From: Sulfurimonas sp. | GTDB lineage: Bacteria; Campylobacterota; Campylobacteria; Campylobacterales; Sulfurimonadaceae | Direction of reading: 5' to 3' | NCBI RefSeq assembly: GCF_028714975.1 | Contig: NZ_JAQTLH010000005.1 | Span: forward strand, 53,957-117,956 | DNA: 64,000 nucleotides | Notes under the pieces: model-generated | The model's database searches: none | Seen by the model: only the letters and a program-made list of their open reading frames with translations | Told to the model about the DNA's origin: nothing | Translations under genes and position numbers: made by a program | Part shown: positions 50,564-64,000 of the stretch, one piece after another | Position numbering within the stretch: the stretch's first letter is position 1 | Layout: every line of letters starts with the position of its first letter

Positions 50564-50728
50564 ATAGCGCTATCTATAGATTTCAACTAGTTTTTATCAT
50601 TTTTTCTGTAAAATCCCAAATCAGATTTTAGTAGGGAAACTTTTGCATTTATGTAGAAGTTGCTATATCCATAATGGATATGGTTACGCTAGCCGAAAAA
50701 GTTTGTAATAATTTTATTGGAGAAACTT

Positions 50729-51043
50729 ATGAAAAAAATTCTTTTCTTAATGGTAGCTTTAGCTACTGCTGCTTTAGCTGCTGACGGTGAGGTTGCAAAC
50801 CAAACTCTTAAAGCTTACTCAATGATCGCTGCAGGTCTTGGTCTTGGTCTTGCTGCTCTTGGTGGAGCTATCGGTATGGGTAATACTGCTGCTGCAACAA
50901 TCGCAGGAACTGCAAGAAATCCAGGTTTAGGTGCTAAACTTATGACAACTATGTTCATTGCTCTTGCGATGATCGAAGCTCAAGTTATTTACGCACTTGT
51001 AATTGCTCTTATAGCACTTTACGCAAACCCATATTTAGGTTAA
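50729..51043 (+). CDS. atpE: F0F1 ATP synthase subunit c
   Basis: The ORF track gives 50717 from TTG; the ATG at 50729 is preferred. Two TM helices, 'GLGLGLAALGGAIGMGN', the loop 'ARNPG', and the proton-binding Glu in 'LAMIEAQVIYALV'. Confidence 0.85.
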   Translation: MKKILFLMVALATAALAADGEVANQTLKAYSMIAAGLGLGLAALGGAIGMGNTAAATIAGTARNPGLGAKLMTTMFIALAMIEAQVIYALVIALIALYANPYLG

Positions 51044-51105: not shown

Positions 51106-51146
51106 GCGACCGTGGTGGAACGGTAGACACACTACCTTGAGGTAGT
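51106..51146 (+). pseudogene. tRNA-Leu 5'-half fragment (acceptor 5' strand, D arm, anticodon stem 5' side); no T arm or 3' acceptor
   Basis: GCGACCGTGGTGGAACGGTAGACACACTACCTTGAGGT matches the first ~38 nt of the intact tRNA at 51187 with 3 mismatches, then diverges. No CGGTCGC 3' strand occurs downstream. Confidence 0.7.
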
Positions 51147-51186
51147 GCTCCAAAGCATTGTGAAAGTAGAAGAAAAAGTAAAAAAA

Positions 51187-51271
51187 GCGGACGTGGTGGA
51201 ATGGTAGACACACTACCTTGAGGTGGTAGCGCATTACGTGTGTGGGGGTTCAAATCCCCCCGTCCGCACCA
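51187..51271 (+). tRNA. tRNA-Leu (anticodon GAG), class II with long variable arm, CCA encoded
   Basis: Hand-folded. Acceptor GCGGACG/CGTCCGC. D arm GTG-GAATGGTAGA-CAC. Anticodon stem CTACC/GGTAG with loop TTGAGGT. Variable arm CGCATTACGTGTGT. T arm GGGGG-TTCAAAT-CCCCC. Ends in ACCA. Confidence 0.9.
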
Positions 51272-51413
51272 TTTAATTCCCTATAATACGGGCTTTCAAC
51301 AATAAATAAAAAAACAAAAAAGTAATTGTATTCTCACGGACAAATTTGTTTTTCTTATATTCAATCAATTTTTTTTCAAATCAATTCGTTTTTCTAACTT
51401 GTCAGAATGTAAG

Positions 51414-51490
51414 CTTATTGACAGTCTTATTGCACACTTTTATTGCACAATTATGAAAATATTTTTGATTTTCAGTGATTTAATTGCACA
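51414..51490 (+). repeat. Four direct copies of TTATTG(C)ACA between tRNA-Leu and the island
   Basis: CTTATTGACA at 51414-51423, CTTATTGCACA at 51426-51436, TTATTGCACA at 51440-51449, TAATTGCACA at 51481-51490. The arrangement looks like operator or recombinase arm sites. Confidence 0.5.
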
Positions 51491-51530
51491 ATAAATTAAG
51501 TTTCATTTAATAACAATAATGAGTTTGTAC

Positions 51531-51944
51531 TTAGTTTAAAGAAGTATGAATATCAATAATACTATTTGTATGAGATTCATATTTTGCCAATTCTCCGAGT
51601 ATAAATTCTTCAAATCTATCTTTTGTAGAGTTCTCCACTAAATTATCTTGATAAAAAGAACAGTCTTCAATCCTCTCATTCATTTCACCTATTAGATATG
51701 AATAATCACGACTATTATTTTTACCTATAACAATGCATTCGTCTCCTTCTTCAGAGCGATTATTGAACTCTAAAAAATTAACTATTTCTTTATAACTATT
51801 TTTCATTCTTTCGAATAGTAAAAATAAATTGGTTTCTTCCCATTTTTTAAGTATTAAAGAATTTTTATTATCATCAAAGTAGAGAGTAGTTATTTCTATT
51901 CCTCTCCCAGTTTCAATATCTATGTTGTAAGTGTTAATTCCCAT
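51531..51944 (-). CDS. Small acidic hypothetical protein (137 aa), last gene of the RES cassette
   Basis: ORF lying 29 nt downstream of the previous gene on the same strand. D/E-rich. No recognisable motif. Confidence 0.55.
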   Translation of the reverse strand: MGINTYNIDIETGRGIEITTLYFDDNKNSLILKKWEETNLFLLFERMKNSYKEIVNFLEFNNRSEEGDECIVIGKNNSRDYSYLIGEMNERIEDCSFYQDNLVENSTKDRFEEFILGELAKYESHTNSIIDIHTSLN

Positions 51945-51973
51945 TTATTATTCCTTATAATATTTTTATAGCT

Positions 51974-52303
51974 CTAAACATATTCTTTAAATATGTTTTT
52001 AATGCCGTTATGTATGATATATTCTTCTTCATAAAAGAATTCAAGTAAATTATTATGAACGTGATTAACAAACAACATATATTTTTCATTCATATTTTCT
52101 TTAAGATACTCAAGTTGTTCTTCATCTTCATCCACAAAATAATGAGCTATATTTTCAAATTCTATGATATTACTATCAACTTCATCATTAATTATTTTTG
52201 AGTGAATTTCAATATCAATATTTTCACCATTGTGCTCAAATTGAAAATTTGTTTTTACATAAGGAGTTTCTTCATCTCCTACAAATACATTGAACGATAG
52301 CAT
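51974..52303 (-). CDS. Small highly acidic hypothetical protein (109 aa)
   Basis: Starts 20 nt after the RES gene stop. About a quarter of residues are D/E by eye ('VDEDEEQLEYLKENMNE', 'FFYEEEY'). No TM helix or signal peptide. Confidence 0.55.
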   Translation of the reverse strand: MLSFNVFVGDEETPYVKTNFQFEHNGENIDIEIHSKIINDEVDSNIIEFENIAHYFVDEDEEQLEYLKENMNEKYMLFVNHVHNNLLEFFYEEEYIIHNGIKNIFKEYV

Positions 52304-52323
52304 ATAATTCCTTTTAGTTAATT

Positions 52324-53325
52324 TTACAATTCTATTCTGCTTGAGGTAATTTGAATATTTTCTACAATATAAACTTCTGTTTCAATAGCATTTAATTTGT
52401 CATCAAAAAATATGGCATAGTTATCACCATCACCAACAGAACTTTTATAGATAACTCCATCAAAGCCACAATGTTTAATAAGTTCGCAAAGGTATTGACT
52501 TGATAAATATTTTAAATGTGCTTCTCTTGGTAAAATTGGCTTTGAAAGTTCGTCACCTAAATGCGTTAAAAATTCCAAATCTGCTATTCCACCTTCGGGA
52601 AGTTTGAACGGGGAGATAATCTTTCTCGGATTCCTTAAATCAGCAAAAATAAGTTTTTCAGATGATTGAAAGCTTGCGACTGTAATTGAATCTTTTTTAT
52701 GAGGTCTTATTTCTGCAATGGCAGTTTCTTTATTTGAAGCTGTATATAAATAAGAAATTCCTAAAGGGTTTGCACGTCCCGCACTTGCAATTTTAACAGG
52801 AGGCTTGCCCATATCTTTTTTATTAATACTATCAATATCAATATTGATTCTTGCACGATAAAAAAGTTCTGGAACTTCGTTTTGCGGTAAAATTATATAG
52901 TTTAGAAGTGTTTGTAAATGCTCATAATCTGGTGATTTTTGTGGAAAAAAACGATTCACATGTTTAAGCTCTTCCTTAAATTCTTTCCAATTCAGTATTT
53001 TAGTTTCATTTTCTTGTTTAGTTGGAATATATAATCCACTCATATTTTCTTGAAGGATGTCTTCTAATAATTTTAAAGTTGTTTCATCATTTAACTGTTG
53101 AAATAAGTTCCAATCATTTTTTAATAATGATGAAATTAATGAACCTTCTTCGTTTGATAGTTCATATCTTTCCAATAGTGGTTCAATATAGGCACTTAAT
53201 ATTTCTGTATTTATTAAAGAAGTATCTGATGTATGACAAAAATCACATTCACCTTTAGAATGTGATTTTCCCTCAATAATAGCACTAAGAAAATTATCAT
53301 TAAAACAATTTGAACAACAAAGCAT
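52324..53325 (-). CDS. Zn-ribbon N-terminal domain (HEPN/RES-NTD1-like) fused to a RES-domain NAD+-targeting toxin
   Basis: N-terminus 'MLCCSNCFNDNFL...SKGECDFCH' (CxxC...CxxC). RES triad context: 'SAGRANPLGISYLYTASNKETAIAEIRP' supplies R and E, and 'DGVIYKSSVGDGDNYAIF' supplies S. Confidence 0.75.
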   Translation of the reverse strand: MLCCSNCFNDNFLSAIIEGKSHSKGECDFCHTSDTSLINTEILSAYIEPLLERYELSNEEGSLISSLLKNDWNLFQQLNDETTLKLLEDILQENMSGLYIPTKQENETKILNWKEFKEELKHVNRFFPQKSPDYEHLQTLLNYIILPQNEVPELFYRARINIDIDSINKKDMGKPPVKIASAGRANPLGISYLYTASNKETAIAEIRPHKKDSITVASFQSSEKLIFADLRNPRKIISPFKLPEGGIADLEFLTHLGDELSKPILPREAHLKYLSSQYLCELIKHCGFDGVIYKSSVGDGDNYAIFFDDKLNAIETEVYIVENIQITSSRIEL

Positions 53326-54270
53326 TTATTGCTCTAGTAAGTATTTTGATATTAACTCTAAGTGATGTTGCATAGATAGTTTTTTTGCATAACCAAGACC
53401 TGGAAAATGGGCTTCTTCAAAAAAGTTTTTAAATTGTTGATAAGCTTCTGTTTTTAATATCAATGAATTCTCTTCTTCGACAGCTTTAACTAACTTTTCT
53501 AAAGCTTCTAGAAATTTTCCTGCTGGGTCTGTTGGTGTATCCACTCTATCTGAAACAAAATGACGAATATACATATCTTCATCTTCTTCTAAATATGTTA
53601 AATGAAGTGCAATAGCATATGCAGGACCGCCACTTTCTGAATAATCATCTCCTACTATTAGAAAATCTCCAAAGCCCTCCATCCCTTCATCATCATATGT
53701 AATATGCAAATCTGAAAAATGTTCTTTATGAGGGTAGTCTCTATTTTTATTCTTTTTGAATCCATCACGTATTAAAATTCTCGGGATACCATTTTTTTTA
53801 AATTGCTTTTGATACAGCTTCCCTGATTGAGCATCCATAAAAATATGTTTATTGATATTCGAAAAACTTTCTGTAAGCTCAGCTAGTTCTTTAGCTTTTG
53901 GATATCCATTATGAATAATCACAATAGATTTATCTAAATTATCATCTATGAAATCTTTAACTTCCAATAAATTACTTTCAGCATCTACAATATATGCAAT
54001 ACTGTATTTATCATATTCACGTAAAATTGTGTTAATCGTATTATCAAATATTGGGAGGGAATTACTTTTAAAGTCACCATACTTAGGGTTAATCACTAAA
54101 ATAAATTCTGTATTTTCTTTTTTTAGGGATTCTATAGCTTTATTTAAAGGTGCAAAGTTTTTTTTAACAGGCTCTATAATAGGTACCATTGCCGATTTAG
54201 TTATAAGTTTGGCATTTTCTCTGAGTAATATTAATTCGTTCTGCTTACCTCTAAGATATGGATGATACAT
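53326..54270 (-). CDS. Beta-protein / sce7725-like family protein
   Basis: The ORF track extends to 54297. The ATG at 54270 gives 'MYHPYLRGKQNELILLRE', the N-terminal hallmark I recall for the phage P4 Beta-protein / sce7725 family. Its stop abuts the RES gene start (53326/53325). Confidence 0.6.
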   Translation of the reverse strand: MYHPYLRGKQNELILLRENAKLITKSAMVPIIEPVKKNFAPLNKAIESLKKENTEFILVINPKYGDFKSNSLPIFDNTINTILREYDKYSIAYIVDAESNLLEVKDFIDDNLDKSIVIIHNGYPKAKELAELTESFSNINKHIFMDAQSGKLYQKQFKKNGIPRILIRDGFKKNKNRDYPHKEHFSDLHITYDDEGMEGFGDFLIVGDDYSESGGPAYAIALHLTYLEEDEDMYIRHFVSDRVDTPTDPAGKFLEALEKLVKAVEEENSLILKTEAYQQFKNFFEEAHFPGLGYAKKLSMQHHLELISKYLLEQ

Positions 54271-55150
54271 TGTAATCCTTTTTGTTAAAAATAACATTCA
54301 TCTTTTGATTTAATAGATATGAAAAATCTTTTTGTTCTTCCATGGATAAGTCTGATTCTAATACTGCGATTTTTAGAGAATTAGGAAATAAGCTTATTGT
54401 GCTAATGAAATTCTTGTGATTTTTACGTTCTTTAAAAGTTCTTAACATTTCTTTATGAATAATTTCAATAGGTAGCTTTATAAATAATTCTTTGCAAGCT
54501 GAATAAATTTTTGTATTTGGTAAGTCAGGAACAGAATTATAGAATTTCTGAATGATTTGTAGATATTCATTTTTACGTAAAAGATTAAACATAGATTCTT
54601 TATTAAGTCTATTCAAACCAGATTTAGCTTTGCGTATTGTCCTTAGCGTGTATTTATCTGTTAATATAATTATCCCTACTGATTCATCAATCAAAGATTT
54701 GATTTCATCTATTTTTGATTCTACAGAAACCACATTCACATATTCAAAAACTTTTTTATAGTTTTCAATTTGGCTTTCAAGTCGCTCAAAATTATCTAGT
54801 TCCGTTTTAATTTCATATACATGTGAAGTTCCATTAAATATGACAACATCAGCTTTAGATGTTTCAACACGCAATTCCGTAAATAAAGAAGAAGAGTTTA
54901 TAGAATGTCGTCCTATTAAGATTTTTTGGGCGATAGCATTCTTGAAAATATATTCATTTCGATATGTTTTTAAAAGTTGTTTATAAGAGCTTTCAAAAAA
55001 ATCTTTTAGTGTAATATTCTGATAAATTTTATCAAGCATATTAAACTCATCAAAAAATTTCACCAATCGCCCAGAATGATGATTGTAAAAAAAATCTCTT
55101 AAAACATTGGATGTAAAAAGGTAAGATAATGCTATATTGTTTTTTTGCAC
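54251..55150 (-). CDS. PD-(D/E)xK nuclease-fold protein, sce7726-like
   Basis: 'YRNEYIFKNAIAQKILIGRHS...FTELRVETSKADVVIFNGTSHVYEIKTELD' carries E...D-x(n)-E-x-K. GTG start with an AAGGGG RBS. A TAAAAT -10-like box lies at 55176-55181 on the minus strand. The 3' end overlaps the next gene by 20 nt. Confidence 0.6.
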   Translation of the reverse strand: MQKNNIALSYLFTSNVLRDFFYNHHSGRLVKFFDEFNMLDKIYQNITLKDFFESSYKQLLKTYRNEYIFKNAIAQKILIGRHSINSSSLFTELRVETSKADVVIFNGTSHVYEIKTELDNFERLESQIENYKKVFEYVNVVSVESKIDEIKSLIDESVGIIILTDKYTLRTIRKAKSGLNRLNKESMFNLLRKNEYLQIIQKFYNSVPDLPNTKIYSACKELFIKLPIEIIHKEMLRTFKERKNHKNFISTISLFPNSLKIAVLESDLSMEEQKDFSYLLNQKMNVIFNKKDYNVSSIS

Positions 55151-55400
55151 AACCCAACCCCTTGTTCTTTTTTATATTTTACCATTATTTTTCAAAAGCC
55201 TCTTTTAAAACTGCTTGTATTTGAGCTATTGATTTGAGTATCCAGTTCATCACAAATTTTAAAAAGATTTTCTATTTTTAAATTCACTTTCTACGATGTC
55301 ATTTTGATATTCTAATATATTCTGAATAGAGTTTAATATAATATTCTCTCTAATATATTAATATTCGAGATGTCACTAACAAGTTTTTTTATATTTGTGC

Positions 55401-57068
55401 TCATGGTAATTCCTCTCCATGTATGTCTCTATGTAGTTTTTTAAGAATTTGTATAGTATTAATAAGTTCTTGTTTATATATAGGAACTTTCATAGTATCA
55501 TGAGATAAAGGATTTAGTAATAGCCTTGTGAATTCATCTAATGATTCTAATGTTTGTTTTAAATCTTGAATCTTTTTCTTTTTAAAATTTTGAAATATTT
55601 TTAATTCATTTCTCATAAAAACTAAAATTTCATCTTTTTTAGGGTTGTCGTTTAATTCATCATCAATAAAGTCTTTAAATTCTCTTTTCTCAATTAATAT
55701 TTCTATAGCATCTAGTATCTCTTTATACTTTCCAATATTATTATCAGCTTTAGCTTGAGTAAGCATATCTTTAAACTTAGTAAATTCTTCATCTTGATTA
55801 AATACTATATCTGTTAAGTGATTTTGATTGATATACTTTAATAGTCTTTCAGCTTCTTTTCTTAAATAGTTAGCACATGCTGGATAATCGTGTTTGACTA
55901 AATAATATTCAGCTTTAATAAAATAATCTTCATGAGGGATAATTAATGGCTTTTCAATGCTTGCAGAATCATTAACATACATTTCAAAATACTTCCATTT
56001 ATTTCGTTGAATAGTATCAAATTTATTTTTAGCCATTTGAAAAAAAGCTTTATCATGCGTGAGTATAATGAATTGAAAATTTTTAAAATTATCATCATTT
56101 AGTAAAATATTCAATACTGTATCACGATTGGACATATCAAGCGATACCAGTAAGTCGTCAAGAACCAATATTTTTAACTCACTATCTTTTAGCTTTATTT
56201 GACTAATTGCTAATCTTACTGAAAGTGCAATTGCTGTTAATTTAGCCTCATTAAAATAACTTTGTGGTCTATGAACTGGTAGCATCTCGCCACTACTTTT
56301 CTTGACTGTAATAACTAATTTAATTTTAGGTTTTAACAATACTTGTTTGTCATATTTTCCATTAATAATTTCTACTTTTATCTTGATATCTTTAAAATTA
56401 AATTTTATTAAATAAGTATTTGTAGGTAAATTTATATCTTCTACTTTTGATCTCAGCAAGCTATTAAATTGAGCTAATTTCGATATTAAGTTGATGTAAT
56501 CAGTTTTTTCTACAATCTTTCTAGGTTTATGTTTATTTAGCTCAAGTATTTCATTCCATAAATTTCCAAGATTAACACCATCTTTATCCAATATATGAAA
56601 TATTTCATATTCAAATAAAGAGAATAAATCAATATGTTCTTTATGTAAAAAATTAAAAAATCTAAATAAATATTTATAGTTAATAAAATCACTAGCTAAA
56701 TTGGCATTTGCAATAATTTTATCTTCTTTATTTGTATCTATTGTGTTTTTTGAAATAGTAAAATATTTGTTGTCTGCGTGTGGTTTTTGTAAAGAAATTT
56801 TTACAAATGACTTTTCATCATCATCTTCATGAATATTTACTAGAGATTTTTCATTTTCATTCTCTTGTGTTGATTGAGTAAAGTATTCCTTGATTTTTAT
56901 ATCATTCTTGAAACTACTTTGTAATAATGTGTATAATGACCAATATACTGTGCTTTTACCACTCCCATTCTCACCATAAATTAAAATATTTTTATTTTCA
57001 AATTCTAAGGAGTCTGTGTCTAAAAAAAATTTAAAAAACTTAATATCAAGTGTATTTATTTTATACAT
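55401..57068 (-). CDS. ABC/SMC-type ATPase resembling the PrrC/RloA (AAA_13-like) family, with an uncharacterised helical C-terminal domain
   Basis: Walker A 'IYGENGSGKST'. Signature-like 'YFNEAKLTAIALSVRLAI'. Walker B 'LKILVLDDLLVSLD'. D-loop/H-loop 'IILTHD'. The C-terminal ~190 aa is helical with 'YLRKEAERLL' and 'LLNPLSHD'. The start lies 1 nt after the methyltransferase stop. Confidence 0.65.
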   Translation of the reverse strand: MYKINTLDIKFFKFFLDTDSLEFENKNILIYGENGSGKSTVYWSLYTLLQSSFKNDIKIKEYFTQSTQENENEKSLVNIHEDDDEKSFVKISLQKPHADNKYFTISKNTIDTNKEDKIIANANLASDFINYKYLFRFFNFLHKEHIDLFSLFEYEIFHILDKDGVNLGNLWNEILELNKHKPRKIVEKTDYINLISKLAQFNSLLRSKVEDINLPTNTYLIKFNFKDIKIKVEIINGKYDKQVLLKPKIKLVITVKKSSGEMLPVHRPQSYFNEAKLTAIALSVRLAISQIKLKDSELKILVLDDLLVSLDMSNRDTVLNILLNDDNFKNFQFIILTHDKAFFQMAKNKFDTIQRNKWKYFEMYVNDSASIEKPLIIPHEDYFIKAEYYLVKHDYPACANYLRKEAERLLKYINQNHLTDIVFNQDEEFTKFKDMLTQAKADNNIGKYKEILDAIEILIEKREFKDFIDDELNDNPKKDEILVFMRNELKIFQNFKKKKIQDLKQTLESLDEFTRLLLNPLSHDTMKVPIYKQELINTIQILKKLHRDIHGEELP

Positions 57069-57069
57069 A

Positions 57070-60000
57070 CTAAACCTTCTTGATATAGCTAATTATCTCT
57101 TTTAATTCTGTGTCAATTAGCATTAAGTTATTACGAATTTTATTATAAGGTTCTTTGAGTGTGCTAAATGTTTGATTGATGATCTCTATCTTTTCGGAAA
57201 GCTTTTTATCTTCAATACTTTTATATTCTTTTGATACATAAGAGACAAATTCAAGATTTTTATTTGAAAAATCATTACTAAAATATAGCTCATATACCAT
57301 CGCATCTAATATTTCTTCAAAACTTTCTGTGATATGTTGATTTGACACATATTCATTAATTGGCTCATTCAATGAATTTAAACACACTATATAATCCACT
57401 AATATTTCGAAAGGCTTTGTATTGTCAATTTTTTTTATTGGTATATCTAAGATAGGCTCTTTATCAACTTGATAGTTATCTCCTTGCATTTTACCCTTAT
57501 ATTTGAGCCAAAAGGCTATTAATTTAGAATTTAAAATTGCCGTTAAGTATTTCAAACTAATTCTTTTAGATTTTATTACATAAAATGCTTGATTTACATA
57601 GCTATCAAAATCAACATAGGTAAAAACTGGTCTATTAACACATTTTCTTAGTGATAATATTTTTTCGTCTTTAAAAAAATATTCATTTCTAGCTCTATGA
57701 ATACCATACGGTTTATTGTCTGAAGTTATAATTTTTTTAAATTTATCTAAATGTATTTTTAAATTTGAATATGAGTTCATACTATCTGCTCTTTTAAAAC
57801 TACTATCAGTGTATATTATCCAATATTCATTCTCTATGTTAGATTTATATCGTCCTATTTCTTTTGAAGTATATAGAGGTTTAATTAAAGATAATTCCTT
57901 AGCAGAGAGGTTTAAATTATTTTTCTCTTCTGTCGTTAGGTTAAATATACCTTGATTGAGTTCAAAAGTATTTCCTAAAGTTTCAAGAGATTGTTTTGTT
58001 ACATTGTCATTTGGTGTTACTATTCCTTGCGCCACCTCTTCTTTTTTATCTAAAATAAAATTTCTATTACTTTCAATTTTGTCTAAAATAGAAGATATGT
58101 CTGATTCTAGAAATGTGATATTTTTATCAATTAAATCTTTTTTAATAATGACAGAATTATATATGGAGAATTTAAGATTATATTTTTTTCTTAAAAACTT
58201 TGATAATTCATTTTTTGACAAATTTTTGTTTATGACTTTAGAATAATTACAGGTATATTTTTCATTACTAATGTTTTTTTGTAAAAACATTATCATTGTT
58301 TGTATTCCAGCAGTATCAAAAACTTTATAATCCCCAAAATCGATAAACTCTTTAATGACAGATGAATTTAAAAGTTTATTCCGAAATTTTGAGGCTCCAA
58401 AATTACTAATCCAGTTATTTGTTGCTATGAAAGACAAAATACCATTTGGTTTTAATAAGTCAATTCCTTTACAAGCGAATAGATACCAAAGATCCATTTT
58501 TCCTTGATAGCATTCTAAAACCTTAGTTCTATTAAAAGCTGACTTATTAGTATATTCCTTAATATATGGTGGATTGCCAATTATTACATCAAAACCTTTA
58601 TTATTTAATACTTCAGCAAAGTACAGTTTATAAAAAAATAGTTCTGTTGTTGGTCGTTTTTTTACTAATTCCGTTAAAGATATATCTTCATTTAATTTTT
58701 GAATTATGTCCGTTTGTTTTTTGTCAAAACCGAATAAATTTATATTATTTAACTGACTTTTTAATTCTTCATTGTGTTTATCAAGTTTTTTATTTAGTAT
58801 ATCATCGATTTTATGCTCTATACTTTCTTGTATTTTTGTTTTTTCTGAGTTAGTATGAGCATTATAAAATTTGTGTAATAGTATTTGAATTTCATCAATT
58901 ATAGTCTCATCGGTAGAAAATAATGAGTTTGAATCTTTTTCCAGTGGGTCAAATCCATGAATTGTTTCTAGCAAGCTATTTCCAACCATTATTTTATAAA
59001 ATAAATTTGGTAAAGGTGTTGGTTCCTCTTCATCAACTACGATACTTAACCAAAATCTTAATTTCGCGATTTCTACCGCACTTTGTTCTATATCTATTCC
59101 ATAAATACTATTTTCAATCACTTTTCTTTTTAGTTGTCCAATATTAGCTGTTTTATCAATATTTGAAAGAACAGAAACTATTTCATGTAACATACCCATA
59201 GGAAAAGCACCTGAACCAATAGCTGGGTCTAAAACCTTTATATTGAATAATTGGTTTTCTATTGCTTTTGCATTTTTTCTAATAAAAGTATTATCTGTAC
59301 TTTGATTAAAGACCAACTCTTCAATAGCTGTTATATCGTCAAAATAATTTAATAGATAGTTTATAATTGACTTTTGACACATATAATGAACTATTTCTCT
59401 AGGAGTATAATAAGCACCCTTATCTTTTCTATCTTCAAGTAAATCTTCAAATACACGACCAAGCATTTCAGGGTCAATTGCTATTTCACTATCGTCAGGA
59501 GAATCCTCTATAATTGTAAAATTATAACTATCAAAAATTTCAAATATATCTCTAAAAAGAGAGTTGTCTAATATGATATTTAAAGTATCAAATTCATCTT
59601 TACTAAATAATCCACCATTTAAAAATGGCATTTTACATTTTAATTTTTCAAAGTAATCGTTTTCTCTTTTTTCATTCAGTGCTTCAAAAAATATAGGTTG
59701 TAAAATATCCATATAATAGTTATCGTATTGTATGTATTTATCATATTCATTGTTAAAACATTTTGTTAAGAACTTTTTATCTCCATTTTTCCAGTTGTCA
59801 TCACTTCCTAACCAACCTTTTTTTTCTAAAAAGTATAAAAATACAATTCTCCCCAAAAGTTTTTTCGTAAATAATTTTAATTTAATTTCACTCCCAAAAT
59901 AAGCCATTTGAGGATTTAGATAATCAGATATTTCAAAGTATAATTCTTTATATTGTTTGAAAAATTCTTTTGATACTTTTTCAACCCCAAAAGCATCTTG

Positions 60001-60489
60001 CAAGACTTCTATACTTGGATGTTTTAAATCATTTAATTGAGAATATGCTGTTTTTGTAGCAATATCTTTCCCAAGCACATAGGTATATCGCTTTAGATTT
60101 GACACTTGTTGCTTATTATCTTCATCATAGCTAAATCGTATAAAAGAAAGTCTAAATATTTCATTTTTTAAAGGATTATAAAAGATTGCTATTGCACCAT
60201 CAAGAAGTTCGTCTTCAACTCTTTTTTTTAGTATTGTATTTAAAGACACCCTATTATTTTCGATATCTACTTTTTCAGTTGATAGGAATTCAAAAAAACC
60301 TATTTCTTTTCCATCATCAAGTGCAACTTGCCCTAAAAATTTATATTTTTGAATATTTTTTTGTTCTACTTCAGTATCTGGAATTTGGTAGTCAATATCA
60401 TTCTCTTCAAATCCGTAAAACTTATCATAGATAAACTCTATAAAATTTTCTTTGCTATAACTTGATTGTAAAAATTTTTTAATATCCAA
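57070..60489 (-). CDS. Large gamma-class N6-adenine DNA methyltransferase (Eco57I/TaqI-like catalytic core plus C-terminal target-recognition region); no nuclease motif seen
   Basis: Motif I 'VLDPAIGSGAFPMG' precedes motif IV 'VIIGNPPYIKEY'. A TaqI_C-like 'YQVDKEPILDIPI' is present. The N-terminal ~350 aa has unknown function, and I could not find a D...ExK motif in it. Confidence 0.8.
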   Translation of the reverse strand: MDIKKFLQSSYSKENFIEFIYDKFYGFEENDIDYQIPDTEVEQKNIQKYKFLGQVALDDGKEIGFFEFLSTEKVDIENNRVSLNTILKKRVEDELLDGAIAIFYNPLKNEIFRLSFIRFSYDEDNKQQVSNLKRYTYVLGKDIATKTAYSQLNDLKHPSIEVLQDAFGVEKVSKEFFKQYKELYFEISDYLNPQMAYFGSEIKLKLFTKKLLGRIVFLYFLEKKGWLGSDDNWKNGDKKFLTKCFNNEYDKYIQYDNYYMDILQPIFFEALNEKRENDYFEKLKCKMPFLNGGLFSKDEFDTLNIILDNSLFRDIFEIFDSYNFTIIEDSPDDSEIAIDPEMLGRVFEDLLEDRKDKGAYYTPREIVHYMCQKSIINYLLNYFDDITAIEELVFNQSTDNTFIRKNAKAIENQLFNIKVLDPAIGSGAFPMGMLHEIVSVLSNIDKTANIGQLKRKVIENSIYGIDIEQSAVEIAKLRFWLSIVVDEEEPTPLPNLFYKIMVGNSLLETIHGFDPLEKDSNSLFSTDETIIDEIQILLHKFYNAHTNSEKTKIQESIEHKIDDILNKKLDKHNEELKSQLNNINLFGFDKKQTDIIQKLNEDISLTELVKKRPTTELFFYKLYFAEVLNNKGFDVIIGNPPYIKEYTNKSAFNRTKVLECYQGKMDLWYLFACKGIDLLKPNGILSFIATNNWISNFGASKFRNKLLNSSVIKEFIDFGDYKVFDTAGIQTMIMFLQKNISNEKYTCNYSKVINKNLSKNELSKFLRKKYNLKFSIYNSVIIKKDLIDKNITFLESDISSILDKIESNRNFILDKKEEVAQGIVTPNDNVTKQSLETLGNTFELNQGIFNLTTEEKNNLNLSAKELSLIKPLYTSKEIGRYKSNIENEYWIIYTDSSFKRADSMNSYSNLKIHLDKFKKIITSDNKPYGIHRARNEYFFKDEKILSLRKCVNRPVFTYVDFDSYVNQAFYVIKSKRISLKYLTAILNSKLIAFWLKYKGKMQGDNYQVDKEPILDIPIKKIDNTKPFEILVDYIVCLNSLNEPINEYVSNQHITESFEEILDAMVYELYFSNDFSNKNLEFVSYVSKEYKSIEDKKLSEKIEIINQTFSTLKEPYNKIRNNLMLIDTELKEIISYIKKV

Positions 60490-60506
60490 GGCTTGTCCTT
60501 TTAATG

Positions 60507-63500
60507 CTAAACAAATGTTTCACTTAAAATAATATCCATATTAATTTTAAATTTTTGTTGCTCTTTTTTTGTTTCAAATAAACTATATTTGTCTTGTAGT
60601 TTATTGATTTCTTTAGCTATTTCATAATCTTGATATTTTTTAGAAATAGAAATTACTTCCTTACTAAGATTTTGTAATTTACCATCTCTAATTGTTTTTG
60701 TAAAAATATTAAATGTTTCTTTCTCAATAAACTCTTTATCTATCCAAGATTTAAACAACTTAATAGCTTGTTTATCAAACTTGTGTTCAACTCGTATATT
60801 TGTAGTTTGATGGGCGATACCATTTAATTCTTTTTCATAAAATTTCATAGCAGTTTGAACATGCTCATAGTGATAATTTTGTATAGGTAATATAGCCACT
60901 TCTTTTCTATCAGTTTTTAATTCTGTCGCCATTTGAATAAAATTTACTGCTTCACATTTTTCATTATTAACTTTGTAGTAGTTCTTTGATTCATAGTTCT
61001 TTATAAAAACAAATGAAGCCTCTTTTACATTTTCTATGTCTCTTTGAACTCTGACTTTTTTAGGTAATTTATATAGTGCATTGAATTTTTTAGGATTTGC
61101 TTCTTTAAAAGTTCTAATTTCTTCTAAATATTTCAATTCTTCGTCAGGCTTTTCAATATCTGTTTCGTATAGTGCAACAGTTCCAACTTTTTCATCTTTT
61201 GAATAGATTTGACTATCCTCTCCGACTGCATGGTGAAAAGTTTGTAATTTTATAAATGCTTTTTTAGATAGTTCTATTAGGCTTTCACTTTGAGCTGTTG
61301 GCTTAAAGTTATATATGAAGATTTCACTATGCTTCGTTCCAATACGATTTATCCTACCAATTCTTTGCATTAGTCGTGTAGAGTTCCAAGGAATATCATA
61401 GTTATAAACTATATTAGCCCGATGCATATTAACACCCTCACTTAAAGTGTCAGTTGAAATAATTACATTATATTCATCTTTTTGTGTAGAATAATTAGCA
61501 TCAAAATTTTCTCTAATGGTGTCTCTTAATTTATCTCTATTTCCACCATGAACAGTTAAAACTTTATTATAGTCTTGAAGCTCTTGTTCAAGATAAAGAG
61601 CAGTTTGTTTTGATTCTGTAAAAACTACAATTTTACCTTCAGTGTGAGTATCTAAAATAGATTTAAATTTCTCTAACTTAGGGTCATAATCAACTTTATT
61701 CCATAAGTTTATTAAATCTTCTAAAATAAGTAAATCACTTTCTAATTGTTCTAAAAACTCATTTGTAAAATCACTTGAATCAAATGCTTTCATTTTTTCA
61801 TTTTCTAAAAAATAATCAATTCTACTTTCAAAGTCTTCCTCATCCTTGTCAATCATATCGTAAAGATTGAAATGTTTAGAAGGGATATAAACAACACCTG
61901 ATTTGAACATTTGAATTAAATAGTCAAGGTTTTTAGTTTGTTTATTTATTGTAGATTTAAAAGCAGTGAATGAACTTTCAAGTCGTTTGACTAACATCGT
62001 TTTCATAATATCGGCAAGACTTAAGGCACTTTTTTCAAAAAAACCTTCTTGTACTTGTCCATATTTTTTTCTGCCAGATTGATTTAGATTAGCTAGAATC
62101 TGATATCTGTAATACTGTAAATCTTTTGTCAGAATTGTAATCGTTTTATCAAAGATTTCAAGTAGATTATCATCTAGCTTATATTCAAGTTCAATAACAG
62201 GATTAATAATTGGAATATTTAAACCTTGCTCTATTAAATCTTTTTTATAAGTTTCATTTATTTGTATATCAGTTCTTGTTCTCCTAACCATTACTTCTCG
62301 TAAAATATTATCTCTAACTCTTTTTGATAATCTTTCAAGTTCAATCAGCTCACTAGAAGATAATTCAAGAGAGTTTTCTTTTTTACCAATTATCTCTTTG
62401 TATTGTTTGTCAATACTTGCAAAAAAACTTTCTAAATTTGGATGTGAATCAATTGTTGAATTTCTTTTATCTTGAAATAAATATAATTGATTAGCAATAT
62501 CTTGTGGTTTGTTATTTAATGGTGTAGCGGATACAAGAAGTATCTTTTTTTTGTATTTAACTTCTTCTTTACAAATTCTCTCCAACTCTTTATATCGCGA
62601 AGTAGAAAAGTTCTTGAATTTATGAGATTCATCAATTATAATCATTTCATAATCTTCTGTATCTTTTATTTTTTCCAATGCTCCATACGATTTAAATACA
62701 AAGTGTCTAATACTTCCTATCTGAAATCTTTTAAATGTTTCAACCCACTCTTTTTCAATAGACGGAGGGGCGATAATTAGTATTTGACCTTTTGTCTCAA
62801 AACATAATTTTTTAATAATCATTGCACTTGTTATAGTCTTTCCAAGTCCAACAACATCCGATAGAAAAAAGCCATTATGCCTTCTGATTTTAGATAATCC
62901 CTCATTAACTGCATCAATTTGATATGCTAACTTCATATATCCTTTTGGTAAGTCATCTGCAACAGAAGAGTCATAATCAACTCTATCTTCAAAATGTTCT
63001 ATTAAAAATTTCAAATATAGTTCATAAGGAGTTATCTCTTTGAGATAGCTATTCTGCTTAATAGTGTCTATATCAGTTTCAGTAATTTCAATAGATTTAG
63101 CCCATAAGTCTTCAAATTCAGTTAATGCAAACTCTATATCTTCACTATATTTTAGTTCAACATTAAATTCATAATTTTTAGATAAACCATTTTCAGTAAG
63201 ATTTGAGCTACCTGTAATAACTGAACCTCTGTATTCAGTAGTTCCATCATGCCGCTCAATGTTATTTTCTCGTAAAATATATATTTTAGAATGTATGTTT
63301 TTATCTTGTGAAATTTTTATTTCAAGGCGGTTTTCAACAATCATTTTTATAAATAAATTTACACTTTCATCGATCGACTGAGAATACTCTTCTTTTTCTA
63401 AAATATCTTTTTGATTATCAACAAACTCTTGATTAAACTTTTCATAATCTAATAAATTGAATTTTTTACCCCTATTCTTAGCATCAATAGTAAGTTTATC

Positions 63501-63689
63501 AACATTAATACCTACAAGAATTCTAACTTTTTCAATGTTATTAAGTAGTGAGGCTATTTTTTTAAAACCACTAATTCTAAAATAACCTATTAAAAATTCT
63601 AAGTTTTTAATATCATAATGTGTGAGAATATCTTTCAGCCTATTCTCTAATGTATTAGTATCTTGATTTGTGAAAAATTTGGAGTTCAT
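60507..63689 (-). CDS. PLD-family nuclease domain fused to an SNF2-family helicase/translocase
   Basis: N-terminus 'EFLIGYFRISGF' plus 'NIHSKIYILRE...GSSNLTENGL' (single HKD-type motif). Helicase motif I 'VVGLGKTITS', II 'IIIDESHKFKN', III 'VSATPLNN', VI 'LMQRIGRINRIG'. The C-terminal ~250 aa is unassigned. Confidence 0.8.
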   Translation of the reverse strand: MNSKFFTNQDTNTLENRLKDILTHYDIKNLEFLIGYFRISGFKKIASLLNNIEKVRILVGINVDKLTIDAKNRGKKFNLLDYEKFNQEFVDNQKDILEKEEYSQSIDESVNLFIKMIVENRLEIKISQDKNIHSKIYILRENNIERHDGTTEYRGSVITGSSNLTENGLSKNYEFNVELKYSEDIEFALTEFEDLWAKSIEITETDIDTIKQNSYLKEITPYELYLKFLIEHFEDRVDYDSSVADDLPKGYMKLAYQIDAVNEGLSKIRRHNGFFLSDVVGLGKTITSAMIIKKLCFETKGQILIIAPPSIEKEWVETFKRFQIGSIRHFVFKSYGALEKIKDTEDYEMIIIDESHKFKNFSTSRYKELERICKEEVKYKKKILLVSATPLNNKPQDIANQLYLFQDKRNSTIDSHPNLESFFASIDKQYKEIIGKKENSLELSSSELIELERLSKRVRDNILREVMVRRTRTDIQINETYKKDLIEQGLNIPIINPVIELEYKLDDNLLEIFDKTITILTKDLQYYRYQILANLNQSGRKKYGQVQEGFFEKSALSLADIMKTMLVKRLESSFTAFKSTINKQTKNLDYLIQMFKSGVVYIPSKHFNLYDMIDKDEEDFESRIDYFLENEKMKAFDSSDFTNEFLEQLESDLLILEDLINLWNKVDYDPKLEKFKSILDTHTEGKIVVFTESKQTALYLEQELQDYNKVLTVHGGNRDKLRDTIRENFDANYSTQKDEYNVIISTDTLSEGVNMHRANIVYNYDIPWNSTRLMQRIGRINRIGTKHSEIFIYNFKPTAQSESLIELSKKAFIKLQTFHHAVGEDSQIYSKDEKVGTVALYETDIEKPDEELKYLEEIRTFKEANPKKFNALYKLPKKVRVQRDIENVKEASFVFIKNYESKNYYKVNNEKCEAVNFIQMATELKTDRKEVAILPIQNYHYEHVQTAMKFYEKELNGIAHQTTNIRVEHKFDKQAIKLFKSWIDKEFIEKETFNIFTKTIRDGKLQNLSKEVISISKKYQDYEIAKEINKLQDKYSLFETKKEQQKFKINMDIILSETFV

Positions 63690-63764
63690 ATTTTATATTT
63701 CTTATAATTGATTTGCATCTTATTTTATCTAAATAAAACAAACATCCACCTTTTTTAAACTCTT

Positions 63765-63810
63765 CTTAACTTTCTAATTTTTGTTGATTAACAGAAATTA
63801 GAAAGTTAAG
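63765..63810. promoter_or_regulatory. Perfect 16-bp inverted repeat upstream of the PLD-SNF2 gene (operator or terminator of the upstream gene)
   Basis: CTTAACTTTCTAATTT-(14 nt)-AAATTAGAAAGTTAAG. It lies between the stop of the partial minus-strand ORF (63865) and the PLD-SNF2 start (63689). Confidence 0.5.
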
Positions 63811-63864
63811 AAAAGAAAGAATCACCCCTCAAAATCTTCAAATAGATTTTAAAAATTATAATTT

Positions 63865-64000
63865 TTAATCTTCTTTCTTCCCAAACATATGTTCATTCAA
63901 TGTAAGTTTTGGTTTTAAATTGTCTCTATTATTTTCTATTTCATAATAGAGACATCCTATCGCTTCTGAAAACTTGGTATCTATCGTAAGTAATATCTGG
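63865..64000 (-). CDS. Partial CDS (C-terminal 44 aa; start outside window), hypothetical
   Basis: Minus-strand frame open from the window edge to TAA at 63865-63867 (...QILLTIDTKFSEAIGCLYYEIENNRDNLKPKLTLNEHMFGKKED*). No motif recognised. It indicates the island continues beyond 64 kb. Confidence 0.3.
   Translation of the reverse strand, partial: QILLTIDTKFSEAIGCLYYEIENNRDNLKPKLTLNEHMFGKKED

What the first reader, a model, noticed from the sequence alone, without database searches (positions are those of the whole stretch)
51272..64000. AT-rich accessory island of at least 12.7 kb, all on one strand, inserted next to tRNA-Leu; right end not reached
Seen in sequence:
- Every ORF from 51531 to the window end is on the minus strand, and none is housekeeping.
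- By eye the DNA is markedly more AT-rich than the neighbouring pnp/atpE region.
- The island begins about 260 bp after an intact tRNA-Leu(GAG).
- No integrase is present in the window, but a partial ORF at 63865-64000 shows the island continues.

Established knowledge: tRNA genes are common integration sites for genomic islands, and defence systems cluster in such islands.

Inference: this is a horizontally acquired defence island. It stacks an RM-like module, an ATPase and a RES-based cassette, which suggests layered immunity.
Basis: partly seen in the sequence, partly recalled or inferred. Interest (0 to 1): 0.65.

Follow-up and report, generated by a model that had tools for sequence, protein, structure and literature searches.

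The report
Defence island beside replaced tRNA-Leu gene
An AT-rich, strain-specific block of at least 15 kb beside a tRNA-Leu gene in an uncultured Sulfurimonas-like bacterium carries two predicted anti-phage systems and a plasmid-type mobilisation unit; it is a real but fairly ordinary defence island, whose unusual detail is that the bacterium's own tRNA gene was cut in half and replaced by a foreign copy.

Summary
GC falls from 0.357 (backbone) to 0.262 from 51272 to the window end, with no overlap of 2-kb windows. All genes there are on the minus strand, none is housekeeping, and none is an integrase. Relatives with the same pnp-atpE-tRNA-Leu locus lack the block.

It is a composite of independent cassettes:
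- A PLD-SNF2 nuclease-helicase, a type IIG-like N6A methyltransferase and an SMC/ABC-type ATPase. This trio recurs across Campylobacterota and resembles MANTIS / Type-2 BREX-related systems, but lacks their DUF499 and DUF3780 parts.
- An sce7726(cII-like)-sce7725-RES trio, conserved on plasmids of other phyla, plus two small acidic ORFs.
- Beyond the window, a 2.8-kb MobV-relaxase unit between direct repeats of the helicase upstream region.

New points:
- The native tRNA-Leu is truncated exactly after the anticodon loop (51106-51143).
- The intact tRNA (51187-51271) is a foreign allele.
- The same tRNA hosts a related module, in inverted orientation, in another family. That island is fully bounded and has no integrase.

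Verdict: new member of a known kind; modest interest.

The parts
51106..51143 (+). Remnant of the native tRNA-Leu(GAG): nucleotides 1-38, ending exactly at the last base of the anticodon loop
   Evidence: 38/38 identical to the single tRNA-Leu of the empty-site relative L002, and at the same position after atpE. Direct repeat D1 with the intact tRNA. Not called as a tRNA by ARAGORN or Rfam.
51144..51186 (.). 43-nt A-rich spacer joining the remnant to the intact tRNA; probable left edge of the foreign DNA
   Evidence: Absent from relatives, whose contigs skip 81-87 nt here (X23, X24). The remnant-spacer-tRNA junction is present in an independent groundwater run (X44, 111-nt contig covering 51114-51224, 1 mismatch). 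It is not covered by the X1 Logan contigs.
51187..51271 (+). Intact tRNA-Leu(GAG), a xenologous allele
   Evidence: ARAGORN; Rfam tRNA 57.6 bits. It differs from the L002 tRNA at 10/85 positions, with compensatory changes in the acceptor and T stems, and its 3' acceptor strand does not pair with the remnant's 5' strand. Its 3' two-thirds is at 133x in run X1, against 15x for this genome, so other community members share it.
51272..51530 (.). Non-coding left end of the cargo, with a cluster of TTATTGCACA motifs (51427, 51440, 51481)
   Evidence: Homology with all relatives ends at 51272. The window's only two exact motif copies lie 13 nt apart here, and a one-mismatch copy follows. Function unknown.
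51531..51944 (-). 137-aa acidic ORF, no family
   Evidence: ORF. No significant match in Pfam, NCBIfam or PADLOC. Not homologous to P4 Gop. Absent from the plasmid copies of the RES trio.
51974..52303 (-). 109-aa acidic ORF, no family
   Evidence: ORF; no family match. A copy about 92% identical sits in 542-nt and 1110-nt contigs of runs X2 and X3, whose remaining sequence does not lie on the window at 90% or more.
52324..53325 (-). Cys-rich N-terminal domain (HEPN_RES_NTD1) plus RES domain: predicted NAD+-degrading effector
   Evidence: Pfam RES 1.2e-13 and HEPN_RES_NTD1 3.4e-08. 38% identical over full length (3e-75) to the 'RES family NAD+ phosphorylase' of the Rhizobium plasmid trio, with GRANP, AE.RPH and Y.SS motifs conserved.
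53326..54297 (-). sce7725-family protein, middle gene of the trio
   Evidence: NCBIfam NF033831 7.8e-98. Its stop abuts the RES start. Homologues at 33-45% identity on plasmids of Rhizobium, Shinella, Ralstonia, Moraxella and Enterococcus. Relation to P4 Beta is inconclusive.
54251..55150 (-). sce7726-family protein (homologue of phage P4 cII), with a PD-(D/E)xK-like D...EIK motif
   Evidence: NCBIfam NF033832 8.3e-58; PADLOC 'cll' 4.1e-19. P4 cII itself matches NF033832 at 2.5e-44, and BLASTP between the two gives 2e-11. 31% identical (1e-57) to the Rhizobium plasmid copy.
55401..57068 (-). SMC_N/AAA_23 (ABC-type) ATPase, third gene of the RM-like module
   Evidence: Pfam SMC_N 6e-16. Weak Rad50/SMC matches in the PDB. 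It starts 1 nt after the MTase stop. Homologues follow the MTase in about 12 related loci. No DUF499 match.
57070..60489 (-). 1139-aa type IIG-like N6-adenine methyltransferase with a TaqI_C specificity domain
   Evidence: Pfam Eco57I 4e-36, TaqI_C 5e-11, MmeI_Mtase 3e-10. PADLOC REase_MTase_IIG 5.5e-86. NPPY and DPAIGSGAF motifs are visible. PDB adenine MTases at 2.8e-10.
60507..63689 (-). 1060-aa PLD(HKD) nuclease fused to a SNF2 helicase
   Evidence: Pfam PLDc_2, SNF2-rel_dom, Helicase_C. PADLOC DrmD 1e-42, 'HKD+Snf2' 3e-40, HmaA 3e-33. 48 related loci, all but two labelled Campylobacterota or unclassified, nearly always followed by the MTase.
63757..63854 (.). Hairpin (arms 63760-63785 / 63790-63815) plus a 30-nt segment (63825-63854) that recurs about 2.8 kb further right
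   Evidence: Inverted repeat I3; DNA fold -17.9 kcal/mol, z -5.5. The 32-mer at 63823-63854 is at 27.8x against 15.5x for its neighbours. A 2847-nt contig starts and ends on it, and a 7802-nt contig also leaves from it. 58 nt and 29 nt are shared at 96.6% with the region upstream of mob, split there by 221 nt.
63865..64000 (-). 3' end of a 174-aa gene; first gene of a 2.8-kb MobV mobilisation unit that runs to about 66.67 kb
   Evidence: P0005 is encoded by the window's genome. Logan contig L052 holds the 174-aa gene, a 54-aa ORF and a 423-aa Mob_Pre relaxase (38.2 bits, cut-off 25.5), and its reverse complement matches window 63825-64000 exactly. Relatives of the 174-aa protein sit next to Rep_3 and IS3 genes.

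Best explanation
The stretch from about 51144 to at least about 66.67 kb (window coordinates, extended with public contigs) is a horizontally acquired, strain-specific variable region at a recurrent insertion hotspot next to tRNA-Leu(GAG). The host is an uncultured Sulfurimonas-like bacterium. The region is not one machine but a stack of independently mobile cassettes.

Cassette 1: an RM-like system.
- It comprises a PLD-SNF2 motor nuclease, a type IIG-like N6A methyltransferase and an SMC/ABC-type ATPase.
- Inferred mechanism, by analogy with MANTIS: the methyltransferase marks the cell's own DNA, the dimeric PLD-helicase cuts unmarked incoming DNA, and the ATPase loads or licenses one of them.

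Cassette 2: a three-gene abortive-infection-type cassette.
- It comprises sce7726 (P4 cII homologue, nuclease fold), sce7725 and a zinc-ribbon RES enzyme.
- Inferred mechanism: the first two proteins hold the RES enzyme in check or sense infection, and the RES enzyme then destroys NAD+ and stops growth, as shown for aRES.
- Two small acidic ORFs that are co-oriented with it, separated by only 20- and 29-nt gaps, have no known role.

Cassette 3: a 2.8-kb plasmid-derived unit.
- It comprises a MobV relaxase, a 54-aa ORF and a 174-aa protein.
- It is flanked by direct repeats of the helicase upstream region.

History of the site: the site was first disrupted when foreign DNA carrying its own complete tRNA-Leu(GAG) replaced everything to the right of nucleotide 38 of the native tRNA. 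The cargo to the right of that tRNA has since been exchanged.

Shown: composition, absence from relatives, gene families, recurrence of the cassettes elsewhere, the tRNA truncation point, the repeat structure.
Inferred: defence function, the mechanism of each module, and the mode of insertion. No integrase is encoded in the 15.4 kb seen; recombination after DNA uptake is my preferred but unproven route.
For: Foreign and accessory:
- GC 0.262 against 0.357, with non-overlapping 2-kb windows; GC3 0.15-0.19 against 0.286; tetranucleotide distance 0.35-0.40 against 0.10-0.20.
- Empty site: contig L002, with a 100% identical AtpE, has atpE, one tRNA-Leu, then an Mqo-like gene 135 nt later.
- Contigs of runs X23 and X24 have one tRNA and other DNA after it. 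X44 has remnant-spacer-tRNA but no island.
- In run X1 the backbone is shredded by a second strain (9.7x + 14.4x, shared pieces about 24x), while the island is one unbroken 12,610-nt contig at 15.5x. That equals the window-identical backbone pieces at 13-16x.
- Island pieces 100% identical occur at low depth in groundwater runs of another study.

Hotspot:
- In L028 (Helicobacteraceae UBA6016), pnp-atpE-radical SAM-tRNA-Leu(GAG) is followed at 176 nt by a related helicase-MTase-ATPase module in the opposite orientation, then a PIN pair, then msrA and a TonB-dependent receptor.
- GC dips only over the insert. There is no integrase and no tRNA-fragment repeat.

Cassette independence:
- The helicase-MTase pair occurs in nearly all of the 48 related loci, the ATPase in about 12, and the RES trio in none.
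- In four lineages the module sits right after dnaE.
- The sce7726-sce7725-RES trio is colinear on plasmids of Rhizobium, Shinella and Moraxella, without the small ORFs.

Defence function by homology:
- MANTIS MtsC/MtsD-type parts (bioRxiv 10.64898/2026.09.23.753747; PMC12839542).
- P4 cII = sce7726 family, and gop-beta-cII protects against lambda and P1 (PMC9122126).
- RES-domain aRES proteins deplete NAD+ and defend (bioRxiv 10.64898/2026.01.28.702374).

tRNA replacement.
Mob unit and repeats.
Against: - The DNA right of about 66.67 kb was not read, so an integrase and a displaced tRNA 3' half may lie there. The true right boundary is inferred only from the assembly graph and from a plus-strand gene start in a 30-nt loose end.
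- The window is a metagenome assembly. The island contig joins the backbone through an 85-nt tRNA whose 3' part is shared by far more abundant organisms (133x). The 46-nt bridge 51141-51186 is missing from the X1 Logan contigs that were read (93% of the run).
- X44 shows that the remnant-spacer-tRNA arrangement exists without this cargo. The tRNA replacement and the present cargo are therefore not demonstrably one event.
- No module has been tested experimentally. Module 1 lacks MtsA/MtsB equivalents, and the sce7725-Beta link is unproven.
- The 2.8-kb unit could be a free circle that merely shares a site with the island; the graph alone cannot tell.
Confidence: 0.72

Rival explanations
1. It is a classical integrase-driven integrative (mobilisable) element. 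The whole block, including the MobV relaxase, is one IME or integrated plasmid that entered the tRNA-Leu gene by site-specific recombination in the anticodon loop. Its tyrosine integrase and the displaced native tRNA 3' half lie in the unread DNA to the right.
For: - The native tRNA is cut exactly at the 3' edge of the anticodon loop (nt 38). From established knowledge, that is a preferred crossover sublocation of tRNA-targeting tyrosine integrases.
- A relaxase and plasmid-associated genes are part of the block.
- The Mob unit has the same low GC (0.274) as the island.
- A motif cluster at the left end could be arm-type sites.
- The right end is unread.
Against: - No integrase in 15.4 kb.
- The junction does not rebuild a hybrid tRNA as integrase-mediated insertion does. 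Instead a complete foreign tRNA lies 43 nt inside.
- X44 has the same left junction without this cargo.
- The bounded island at the orthologous tRNA in L028 has no integrase and no repeat.
- The loose end after the second repeat copy begins a plus-strand gene, which suggests the one-strand block ends there.
Confidence: 0.2
2. It is an assembly chimera. The 12.6-kb block plus the Mob unit belongs to a plasmid or to another organism of the landfill community that carries the same tRNA-Leu allele, and the assembler joined it to this chromosome through the shared tRNA sequence.
For: - The public contigs of the source run break inside the tRNA at 51243 and at 63852.
- The tRNA 3' part is at 133x.
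- No X1 contig read covers 51141-51186.
- Plasmid-type neighbours: Mob_Pre, and Rep_3-associated relatives of the 174-aa protein.
- Composition is unlike the backbone.
Against: - Depth of the island (15.5x), the Mob unit (15.9x) and the next contig (15.4x) equals that of the window-identical backbone pieces (13-16x), in a sample whose other tRNA-sharing organisms are at 80-180x.
- An independent MAG of another family has a related module directly after the orthologous tRNA.
- The window's contig is 144.9 kb, so the assembler found a path on both sides.
- The remnant-spacer-tRNA junction is real in an independent run.
Confidence: 0.08

Closest known systems
tRNA-associated genomic (defence) islands
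   Same: An AT-rich, strain-specific block directly after a tRNA gene, filled with defence genes. The same tRNA is used in another family.
   Different: No integrase and no direct repeat of the tRNA 3' end in the 15.4 kb seen. The native tRNA is truncated after the anticodon loop and replaced by a complete foreign allele instead of being rebuilt as a hybrid.
MANTIS = Gao_RL = Type-2 DUF499-centred BREX-related system (MtsA-D; bioRxiv 10.64898/2026.09.23.753747; PMC12839542)
   Same: An N-terminal PLD/HKD nuclease fused to a Swi2/Snf2-type helicase (MtsD-like), next to a large N6-adenine methyltransferase (MtsC-like), together with an ATPase. An RM-like logic is expected.
   Different: The ATPase is SMC_N/AAA_23 (ABC-type), not a DUF499 AAA+ protein. 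There is no DUF3780/MtsB gene here or in any of the related loci examined. The MTase matches type IIG RM enzymes best.
Hma = Type-1 BR system (PMC8565338, PMC11232893)
   Same: A three-gene helicase / methylase / ATPase layout. The helicase matches the PADLOC HmaA model at 2.6e-33.
   Different: HmaA carries a C-terminal PD-(D/E)xK nuclease, HmaB was described as an m5C methylase, and HmaC is DUF499. Here the nuclease is an N-terminal PLD and the methylase is N6A (NPPY). No HmaC model is among the ATPase's 14 listed PADLOC matches, and no HmaB model is among the 25 best of the MTase's 43.
DISARM class 1
   Same: SNF2 helicase (best PADLOC/NCBIfam match DrmD, 1e-42 / 3e-47), PLD nuclease (DrmC-like, here fused) and an Eco57I-type N6A MTase (DrmMI 1e-27).
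   Different: No DrmA or DrmB (DUF1998) genes. All scores are far below the NCBIfam equivalog cut-offs (161 against 610 bits).
Phage P4 gop-beta-cII anti-phage system (PMC9122126; PADLOC/DefenseFinder gop_beta_cll)
   Same: The sce7726 protein is a homologue of cII. It is paired with a ~320-aa partner that shares an N-terminal motif with Beta, plus a toxic effector gene.
   Different: Gop is absent, and a 333-aa RES enzyme stands in the effector position. Gene order is colinear rather than convergent. Beta homology is not demonstrated (BLASTP 0.22; hhalign 17%).
aRES anti-phage RES-domain proteins (bioRxiv 10.64898/2026.01.28.702374) and RES toxins of Xre-RES/MbcTA pairs
   Same: A two-domain protein with a C-terminal RES domain. 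Motifs consistent with the family's R, E and S residues are conserved between the window's protein and its Rhizobium plasmid orthologue. NAD+ depletion is expected.
   Different: aRES proteins were described as stand-alone. Here RES is the third gene of a conserved operon with sce7726 and sce7725, and there is no Xre-type antitoxin.
MobV (Mob_Pre, pMV158-type) mobilisable plasmids and integrative mobilisable elements
   Same: A 423-aa Mob_Pre relaxase with a hairpin just upstream of its gene, in a 2.8-kb unit. Relatives of its 174-aa neighbour sit beside Rep_3.
   Different: No replication gene in the unit. It lies, or appears to lie, in the chromosome at chromosomal depth between direct repeats of the helicase upstream region.

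Membership tests
tRNA-targeting integrative genomic island | Lies directly beside a tRNA gene and is absent from related genomes | tested here: met
   Cargo starts at 51272, right after the CCA end. It is absent from L002, X23, X24 and X44.
tRNA-targeting integrative genomic island | Encodes a tyrosine or serine integrase near one end | tested here: not met
   None among the 8 island ORFs or the 3 genes of the next 2.8 kb. DNA beyond about 66.7 kb is unread, so this applies only to the 15.4 kb seen.
tRNA-targeting integrative genomic island | Flanked by a direct repeat of the tRNA 3' part | tested here: not met
   No copy of either tRNA 3' half in 51272-64000 or in L052. The only repeat is a 5' part lying upstream.
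MANTIS / Type-2 BR system | N-terminal HKD/PLD nuclease fused to a Swi2/Snf2 helicase | tested here: met
   PLDc_2 at residues 69-196, SNF2/ResIII at 255-395, Helicase_C at 671-784.
MANTIS / Type-2 BR system | Adjacent N6-adenine methyltransferase | tested here: met
   Eco57I/MmeI_Mtase domains and an NPPY motif; a 17-nt gap to the helicase gene.
MANTIS / Type-2 BR system | DUF499 AAA+ ATPase (MtsA) | tested here: not met
   The ATPase matches SMC_N, AAA_23, AAA_29 and ABC_tran only. The same holds for the third genes in L009, L036 and L028.
MANTIS / Type-2 BR system | Stand-alone DUF3780 protein (MtsB), present in 98% of loci | tested here: not met
   No ORF of the island matches it, and neither do the neighbours scanned in related loci.
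Hma / Type-1 BR system | Snf2 helicase with a C-terminal PD-(D/E)xK nuclease; DUF499 ATPase | tested here: not met
   The nuclease is an N-terminal PLD. No HmaC model is among the ATPase's 14 PADLOC matches.
DISARM class 1 | DrmA and DrmB (DUF1998) core genes | tested here: not met
   Absent from the island. DrmD/DrmMI matches are partial and below the equivalog cut-offs.
gop-beta-cII (P4) | cII (sce7726-family) protein | tested here: met
   NF033832 at 8.3e-58 for the window's protein and 2.5e-44 for P4 cII; BLASTP 2e-11; PADLOC 'cll' 4e-19.
gop-beta-cII (P4) | Beta protein | tested here: inconclusive
   BLASTP E = 0.22. hhalign of two 5-sequence alignments gives probability 17%, E = 1.5e-3, over a 48-column N-terminal motif only. 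Both families pair with sce7726-family genes.
gop-beta-cII (P4) | Gop toxin | tested here: not met
   PADLOC returned no family at E <= 0.01 for the RES protein or either small ORF, so no gop model matched. The 137-aa ORF against Gop gives no BLASTP similarity. The 109-aa ORF was not compared with Gop directly.
RES-domain NAD+-degrading toxins (aRES, Xre-RES, MbcT) | RES domain with its conserved catalytic residues | tested here: met
   Pfam RES 51.8 bits (cut-off 23.2). GRANP, AE.RPH and Y.SS motifs are conserved against the Rhizobium orthologue. Enzymatic activity was not tested.
RES-domain NAD+-degrading toxins (aRES, Xre-RES, MbcT) | Stand-alone gene (aRES) or an Xre-type antitoxin partner | tested here: not met
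   It is the third gene of a conserved sce7726-sce7725-RES operon, with no HTH gene adjacent.
MobV mobilisable element | Mob_Pre relaxase with an adjacent oriT | tested here: inconclusive
   The relaxase is met (38.2 bits). A hairpin 80-120 nt upstream of mob (z -3.8) resembles, from memory, pMV158-type oriT sites. The nick site was not tested.

The most novel reading that the evidence does not exclude
Defence cargo at this tRNA-Leu site, and at the dnaE site used by the same module in other Campylobacterota, may be exchanged without any integrase. One route would be recombination after natural DNA uptake, with the foreign tRNA and the truncated native tRNA as the footprint of a one-sided illegitimate join. 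Another would be relaxase-catalysed site-specific recombination at the hairpin-bearing repeat that now flanks the MobV unit. In the second case a small mobilisable plasmid would act as the shuttle that docks onto defence cassettes and moves them.
Probability: 0.15. Interest if true: 0.6.

Novelty: new member of a known kind. Interest (0 to 1): 0.35.

Why it matters
Defence islands at tRNA genes are textbook, so the island as such adds one more example, from a poorly studied group (environmental Sulfurimonas-like Campylobacterota). Three things make it useful.

1. It places two widespread but untested variants side by side in one strain: a PLD-SNF2/MTase/ABC-ATPase relative of MANTIS, and a cII/sce7725/RES relative of P4 gop-beta-cII and aRES. 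That gives natural material for testing both.
2. The same tRNA-Leu(GAG) flank, and a dnaE flank, recur as landing sites for the same module in different families. One fully bounded case has no integrase. This bears on how defence cassettes move in naturally competent bacteria.
3. The native tRNA cut exactly at the anticodon-loop edge and backed up by a foreign full-length copy is a clean, datable scar of an old insertion event.

Tried and rejected
**Reaching the DNA to the right**
- The genome-contig scan with the helicase did not return the window's genome (best hit 83%).
- Exact look-ups returned only short Logan contigs of the source run. The exact PNPase was not on record.
- The Mqo route to the native right flank failed. 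The window's own Mqo was not listed, and Mqo is not next to this tRNA in more distant Sulfurimonas.
- The 30-nt loose end of the 7.8-kb contig is absent from the JGI metagenome contigs.

**Ideas tested and dropped**
- That the remnant-plus-tRNA arrangement is an assembly artefact: rejected, because X44 has it.
- That the tRNA replacement and the present cargo were one event: weakened, because X44 lacks the cargo.
- That the ~1,200-aa ORFs upstream of the helicase in relatives are DUF499: rejected, they are DnaE.
- That a small ORF is Gop: the 137-aa ORF shows no similarity to Gop, and no PADLOC model matched either small ORF.
- That the island moved independently of its backbone between landfill and groundwater: not decidable, because X2 and X3 have a similar density of >=99% pieces on both.

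**Uninformative**
- Promoter and terminator scans say nothing in this AT-rich DNA (89 promoter-like sites found, 90 expected).

Full report
**Observation.** All ORFs of 100 aa or more between 51531 and 63689, and the cut ORF at 63865-64000, lie on the minus strand. ARAGORN and Rfam place one tRNA-Leu(GAG) at 51187-51271.

The compositional shift is large:
- GC is 0.357 for 1-51105 and 0.262 for 51272-63852.
- 2-kb windows range 0.300-0.415 on the backbone and 0.236-0.295 on the island, with no overlap.
- GC3 of island ORFs is 0.15-0.19 against a backbone mean of 0.286.
- Tetranucleotide distance to the backbone is 0.35-0.40 against 0.10-0.20.

None of the eight proteins matches an integrase, and none is housekeeping.

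**Source and reliability.** The window is part of a metagenome-assembled genome.
- In X1 the island is one unbroken 12,610-nt contig (window 51243-63852) at depth 15.5.
- The chromosomal backbone is cut into short pieces by a second, related strain: 9.7x and 14.4x variants at pnp, shared pieces near 24x. The pieces identical to the window run at 13-16x.
- Depth therefore fits one genome. The sister strain carries neither an identical nor a diverged copy at the stretches of the island laid in X1 (51305-52300 and 63000-63750).
- The 46-nt bridge 51141-51186 is not in the X1 contigs that were read, which were 93% of the run. An independent groundwater run, X44, has a 111-nt contig covering 51114-51224 with one mismatch.
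- Groundwater runs X2 and X3 hold low-depth pieces 100% identical to the RES, sce7726, ATPase and helicase genes. One X3 contig spans 63610-63953.
- I put an assembly chimera at about 8%.

**The left boundary and the tRNA.**
- A contig with a 100% identical AtpE (L002) shows the empty site: pnp end, atpE, a single tRNA-Leu(GAG), then an Mqo-like oxidoreductase gene 135 nt later.
- Its tRNA is identical over nucleotides 1-38 to window 51106-51143, which sits at the same position after atpE. It differs at 10 of 85 positions from the window's intact tRNA.
- The differences include compensatory pairs in the acceptor and T stems. The intact tRNA's 3' acceptor strand cannot pair with the remnant's 5' strand.
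- So the remnant is the native gene, truncated exactly after the last base of the anticodon loop. The intact tRNA is a foreign allele whose 3' part is shared by much more abundant community members (133x).
- Contigs of relatives in X23 and X24 skip 81-87 nt here, meaning they have one tRNA, and they continue with other DNA after the CCA end.
- X44 has remnant-spacer-tRNA but none of the island. The tRNA replacement is therefore real, but it is not demonstrably the same event as the arrival of the present cargo.
- No copy of a tRNA 3' half exists in 51272-64000 or in the next 2.8 kb.

**The right side.**
- The cut ORF is the end of a 174-aa protein, found through a 44-residue search and then as P0005, which the window's own 144.9-kb contig encodes.
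- Its Logan contig L052 (2,847 nt, 15.9x, GC 0.274) carries the 174-aa gene, a 54-aa ORF and a 423-aa Mob_Pre relaxase.
- L052 starts and ends with the same 28 nt. The 32-mer at 63823-63854 is at 27.8x. A 7,802-nt contig at 15.4x also leaves from it and begins with what looks like a plus-strand ribosome-binding site and ATG.
- The region upstream of mob shares 58 nt and 29 nt (96.6% each) with the region upstream of the helicase. In the mob copy a 221-nt insert separates them, lying between the arms of the strong hairpin at 63760-63815 (-17.9 kcal/mol, z -5.5).
- The simplest linear reading is: island, repeat, Mob unit, repeat, then other DNA from about 66.67 kb. A free circle sharing the site cannot be excluded.
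- Relatives of the 174-aa protein lie beside Rep_3 and IS3 genes, so the unit is plasmid-derived.
- I could not read further.

**Module 1 (55401-63689).**
- It consists of a PLD(HKD)-SNF2 protein, a 1,139-aa Eco57I/MmeI-type N6A methyltransferase with a TaqI_C specificity domain, and an SMC_N/AAA_23 ATPase. The gaps are 17 nt and 1 nt.
- In 48 related loci, all but two labelled Campylobacterota or unclassified, the helicase is nearly always followed by the MTase. About 12 also have the same kind of ATPase. None has the RES trio.
- The closest described kinds are MANTIS / Type-2 BR (PLD-helicase MtsD, MTase MtsC, DUF499 ATPase MtsA, DUF3780 MtsB), Hma / Type-1 BR, and DISARM class 1.
- The defining DUF499, DUF3780, DrmA and DrmB parts were tested and are absent. 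It works like these systems but is not a member of any of them.
- Earlier notes of this scan on other genomes reach the same view. I treated them as leads and checked the papers myself.

**Module 2 (52324-55150).**
- It consists of an sce7726-family protein, an sce7725-family protein and a HEPN_RES_NTD1-RES protein, overlapping or abutting.
- The same colinear trio is on plasmids of Rhizobium phaseoli, Shinella and Moraxella osloensis. RES is 38% identical (3e-75) and sce7726 is 31% identical (1e-57). Enterococcus has a GNAT gene in the third place.
- P4 cII is itself an sce7726-family protein, and gop-beta-cII is a validated anti-phage system.
- Beta-family genes on plasmids pair with convergent sce7726 genes. 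Homology of Beta to sce7725 remains unproven.
- RES-domain aRES proteins defend by NAD+ depletion.
- The cassette is best read as a cII/partner pair controlling a RES NADase. This is inference.
- The 109-aa and 137-aa acidic ORFs follow with 20- and 29-nt gaps, but they are absent from the plasmid copies and have no family.

**Hotspot.**
- In L028 (Helicobacteraceae UBA6016) the order is pnp, atpE, a radical SAM gene, tRNA-Leu(GAG), then helicase-MTase-ATPase in the opposite orientation, a PIN pair, and the core genes msrA and a TonB-dependent receptor.
- GC dips from 0.43-0.44 to 0.37-0.40 only over the insert. There is no integrase and no tRNA-fragment repeat.
- In L005, L022, L031 and L037 the module lies right after dnaE.
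- The module thus lands repeatedly at a few sites without visible mobility genes of its own.

**Verdict.** This is a real, horizontally acquired, composite defence island at a recurrent tRNA-Leu hotspot.
- There are two systems, not three layers.
- No integrase or 3' repeat has been found so far.
- The neighbouring tRNA is itself foreign.

As an island it is a new member of a known kind, of modest interest. Its two modules are untested variants of known systems.

Noticed in passing
window 2538-6374: Five consecutive plus-strand ORFs (154, 189, 415, 253 and 156 aa) have the lowest GC3 of the backbone (0.13-0.20) and no Pfam match. This may be a second foreign patch.
   Followed up: partly
L005 4395-13192; L022 5858-13195; L031 6459-13198; L037 5604-13114: In four other lineages the same PLD-SNF2/MTase module lies directly downstream of dnaE, a second recurrent landing site. 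In L005 and L037 a JetD_C/DUF7281-like gene sits in between, and L005 also has a RhuM-family gene there.
   Followed up: partly
window 50300-50900 (run X1): The landfill sample holds two related strains at this locus (about 9.7x and 14.4x, roughly 94% identical at pnp). The window's consensus follows the rarer variant at 50300-50530 and the commoner one elsewhere, so it is a fine-scale strain mosaic.
   Followed up: partly
L052 386-422 (about 80-120 nt upstream of mob): A hairpin (TCTTATACTATC-GTA-GATAGTGTATAG, z -3.8) is followed by GTGGGTTATACCC. From memory this resembles pMV158-type oriT nick regions, so it is a candidate oriT.
   Followed up: no
window 51427-51490: The window's only two exact TTATTGCACA copies lie 13 nt apart, and a one-mismatch copy lies 41 nt further on. 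They are downstream of the last island gene; their function is unknown.
   Followed up: partly
window 52048-52321: Groundwater runs X2 and X3 hold a copy of the 109-aa ORF about 92% identical, inside 542-nt and 1110-nt contigs. The rest of those contigs does not match the window at 90% or more. The small ORF may move separately, or sit in a diverged copy of the cassette.
   Followed up: no
window 46194-48362: A 722-aa ORF between an RDD-family gene and pnp has no Pfam match. L028 has a 703-aa ORF at a similar position upstream of pnp.
   Followed up: no
L012, L025: Two contigs of a MAG labelled 'Helicobacter pylori PMSS1 isolate MiH-14oct19-106' carry two different copies of the module (61% and 79% identical helicases). 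The organism label looks wrong for an environmental MAG.
   Followed up: no
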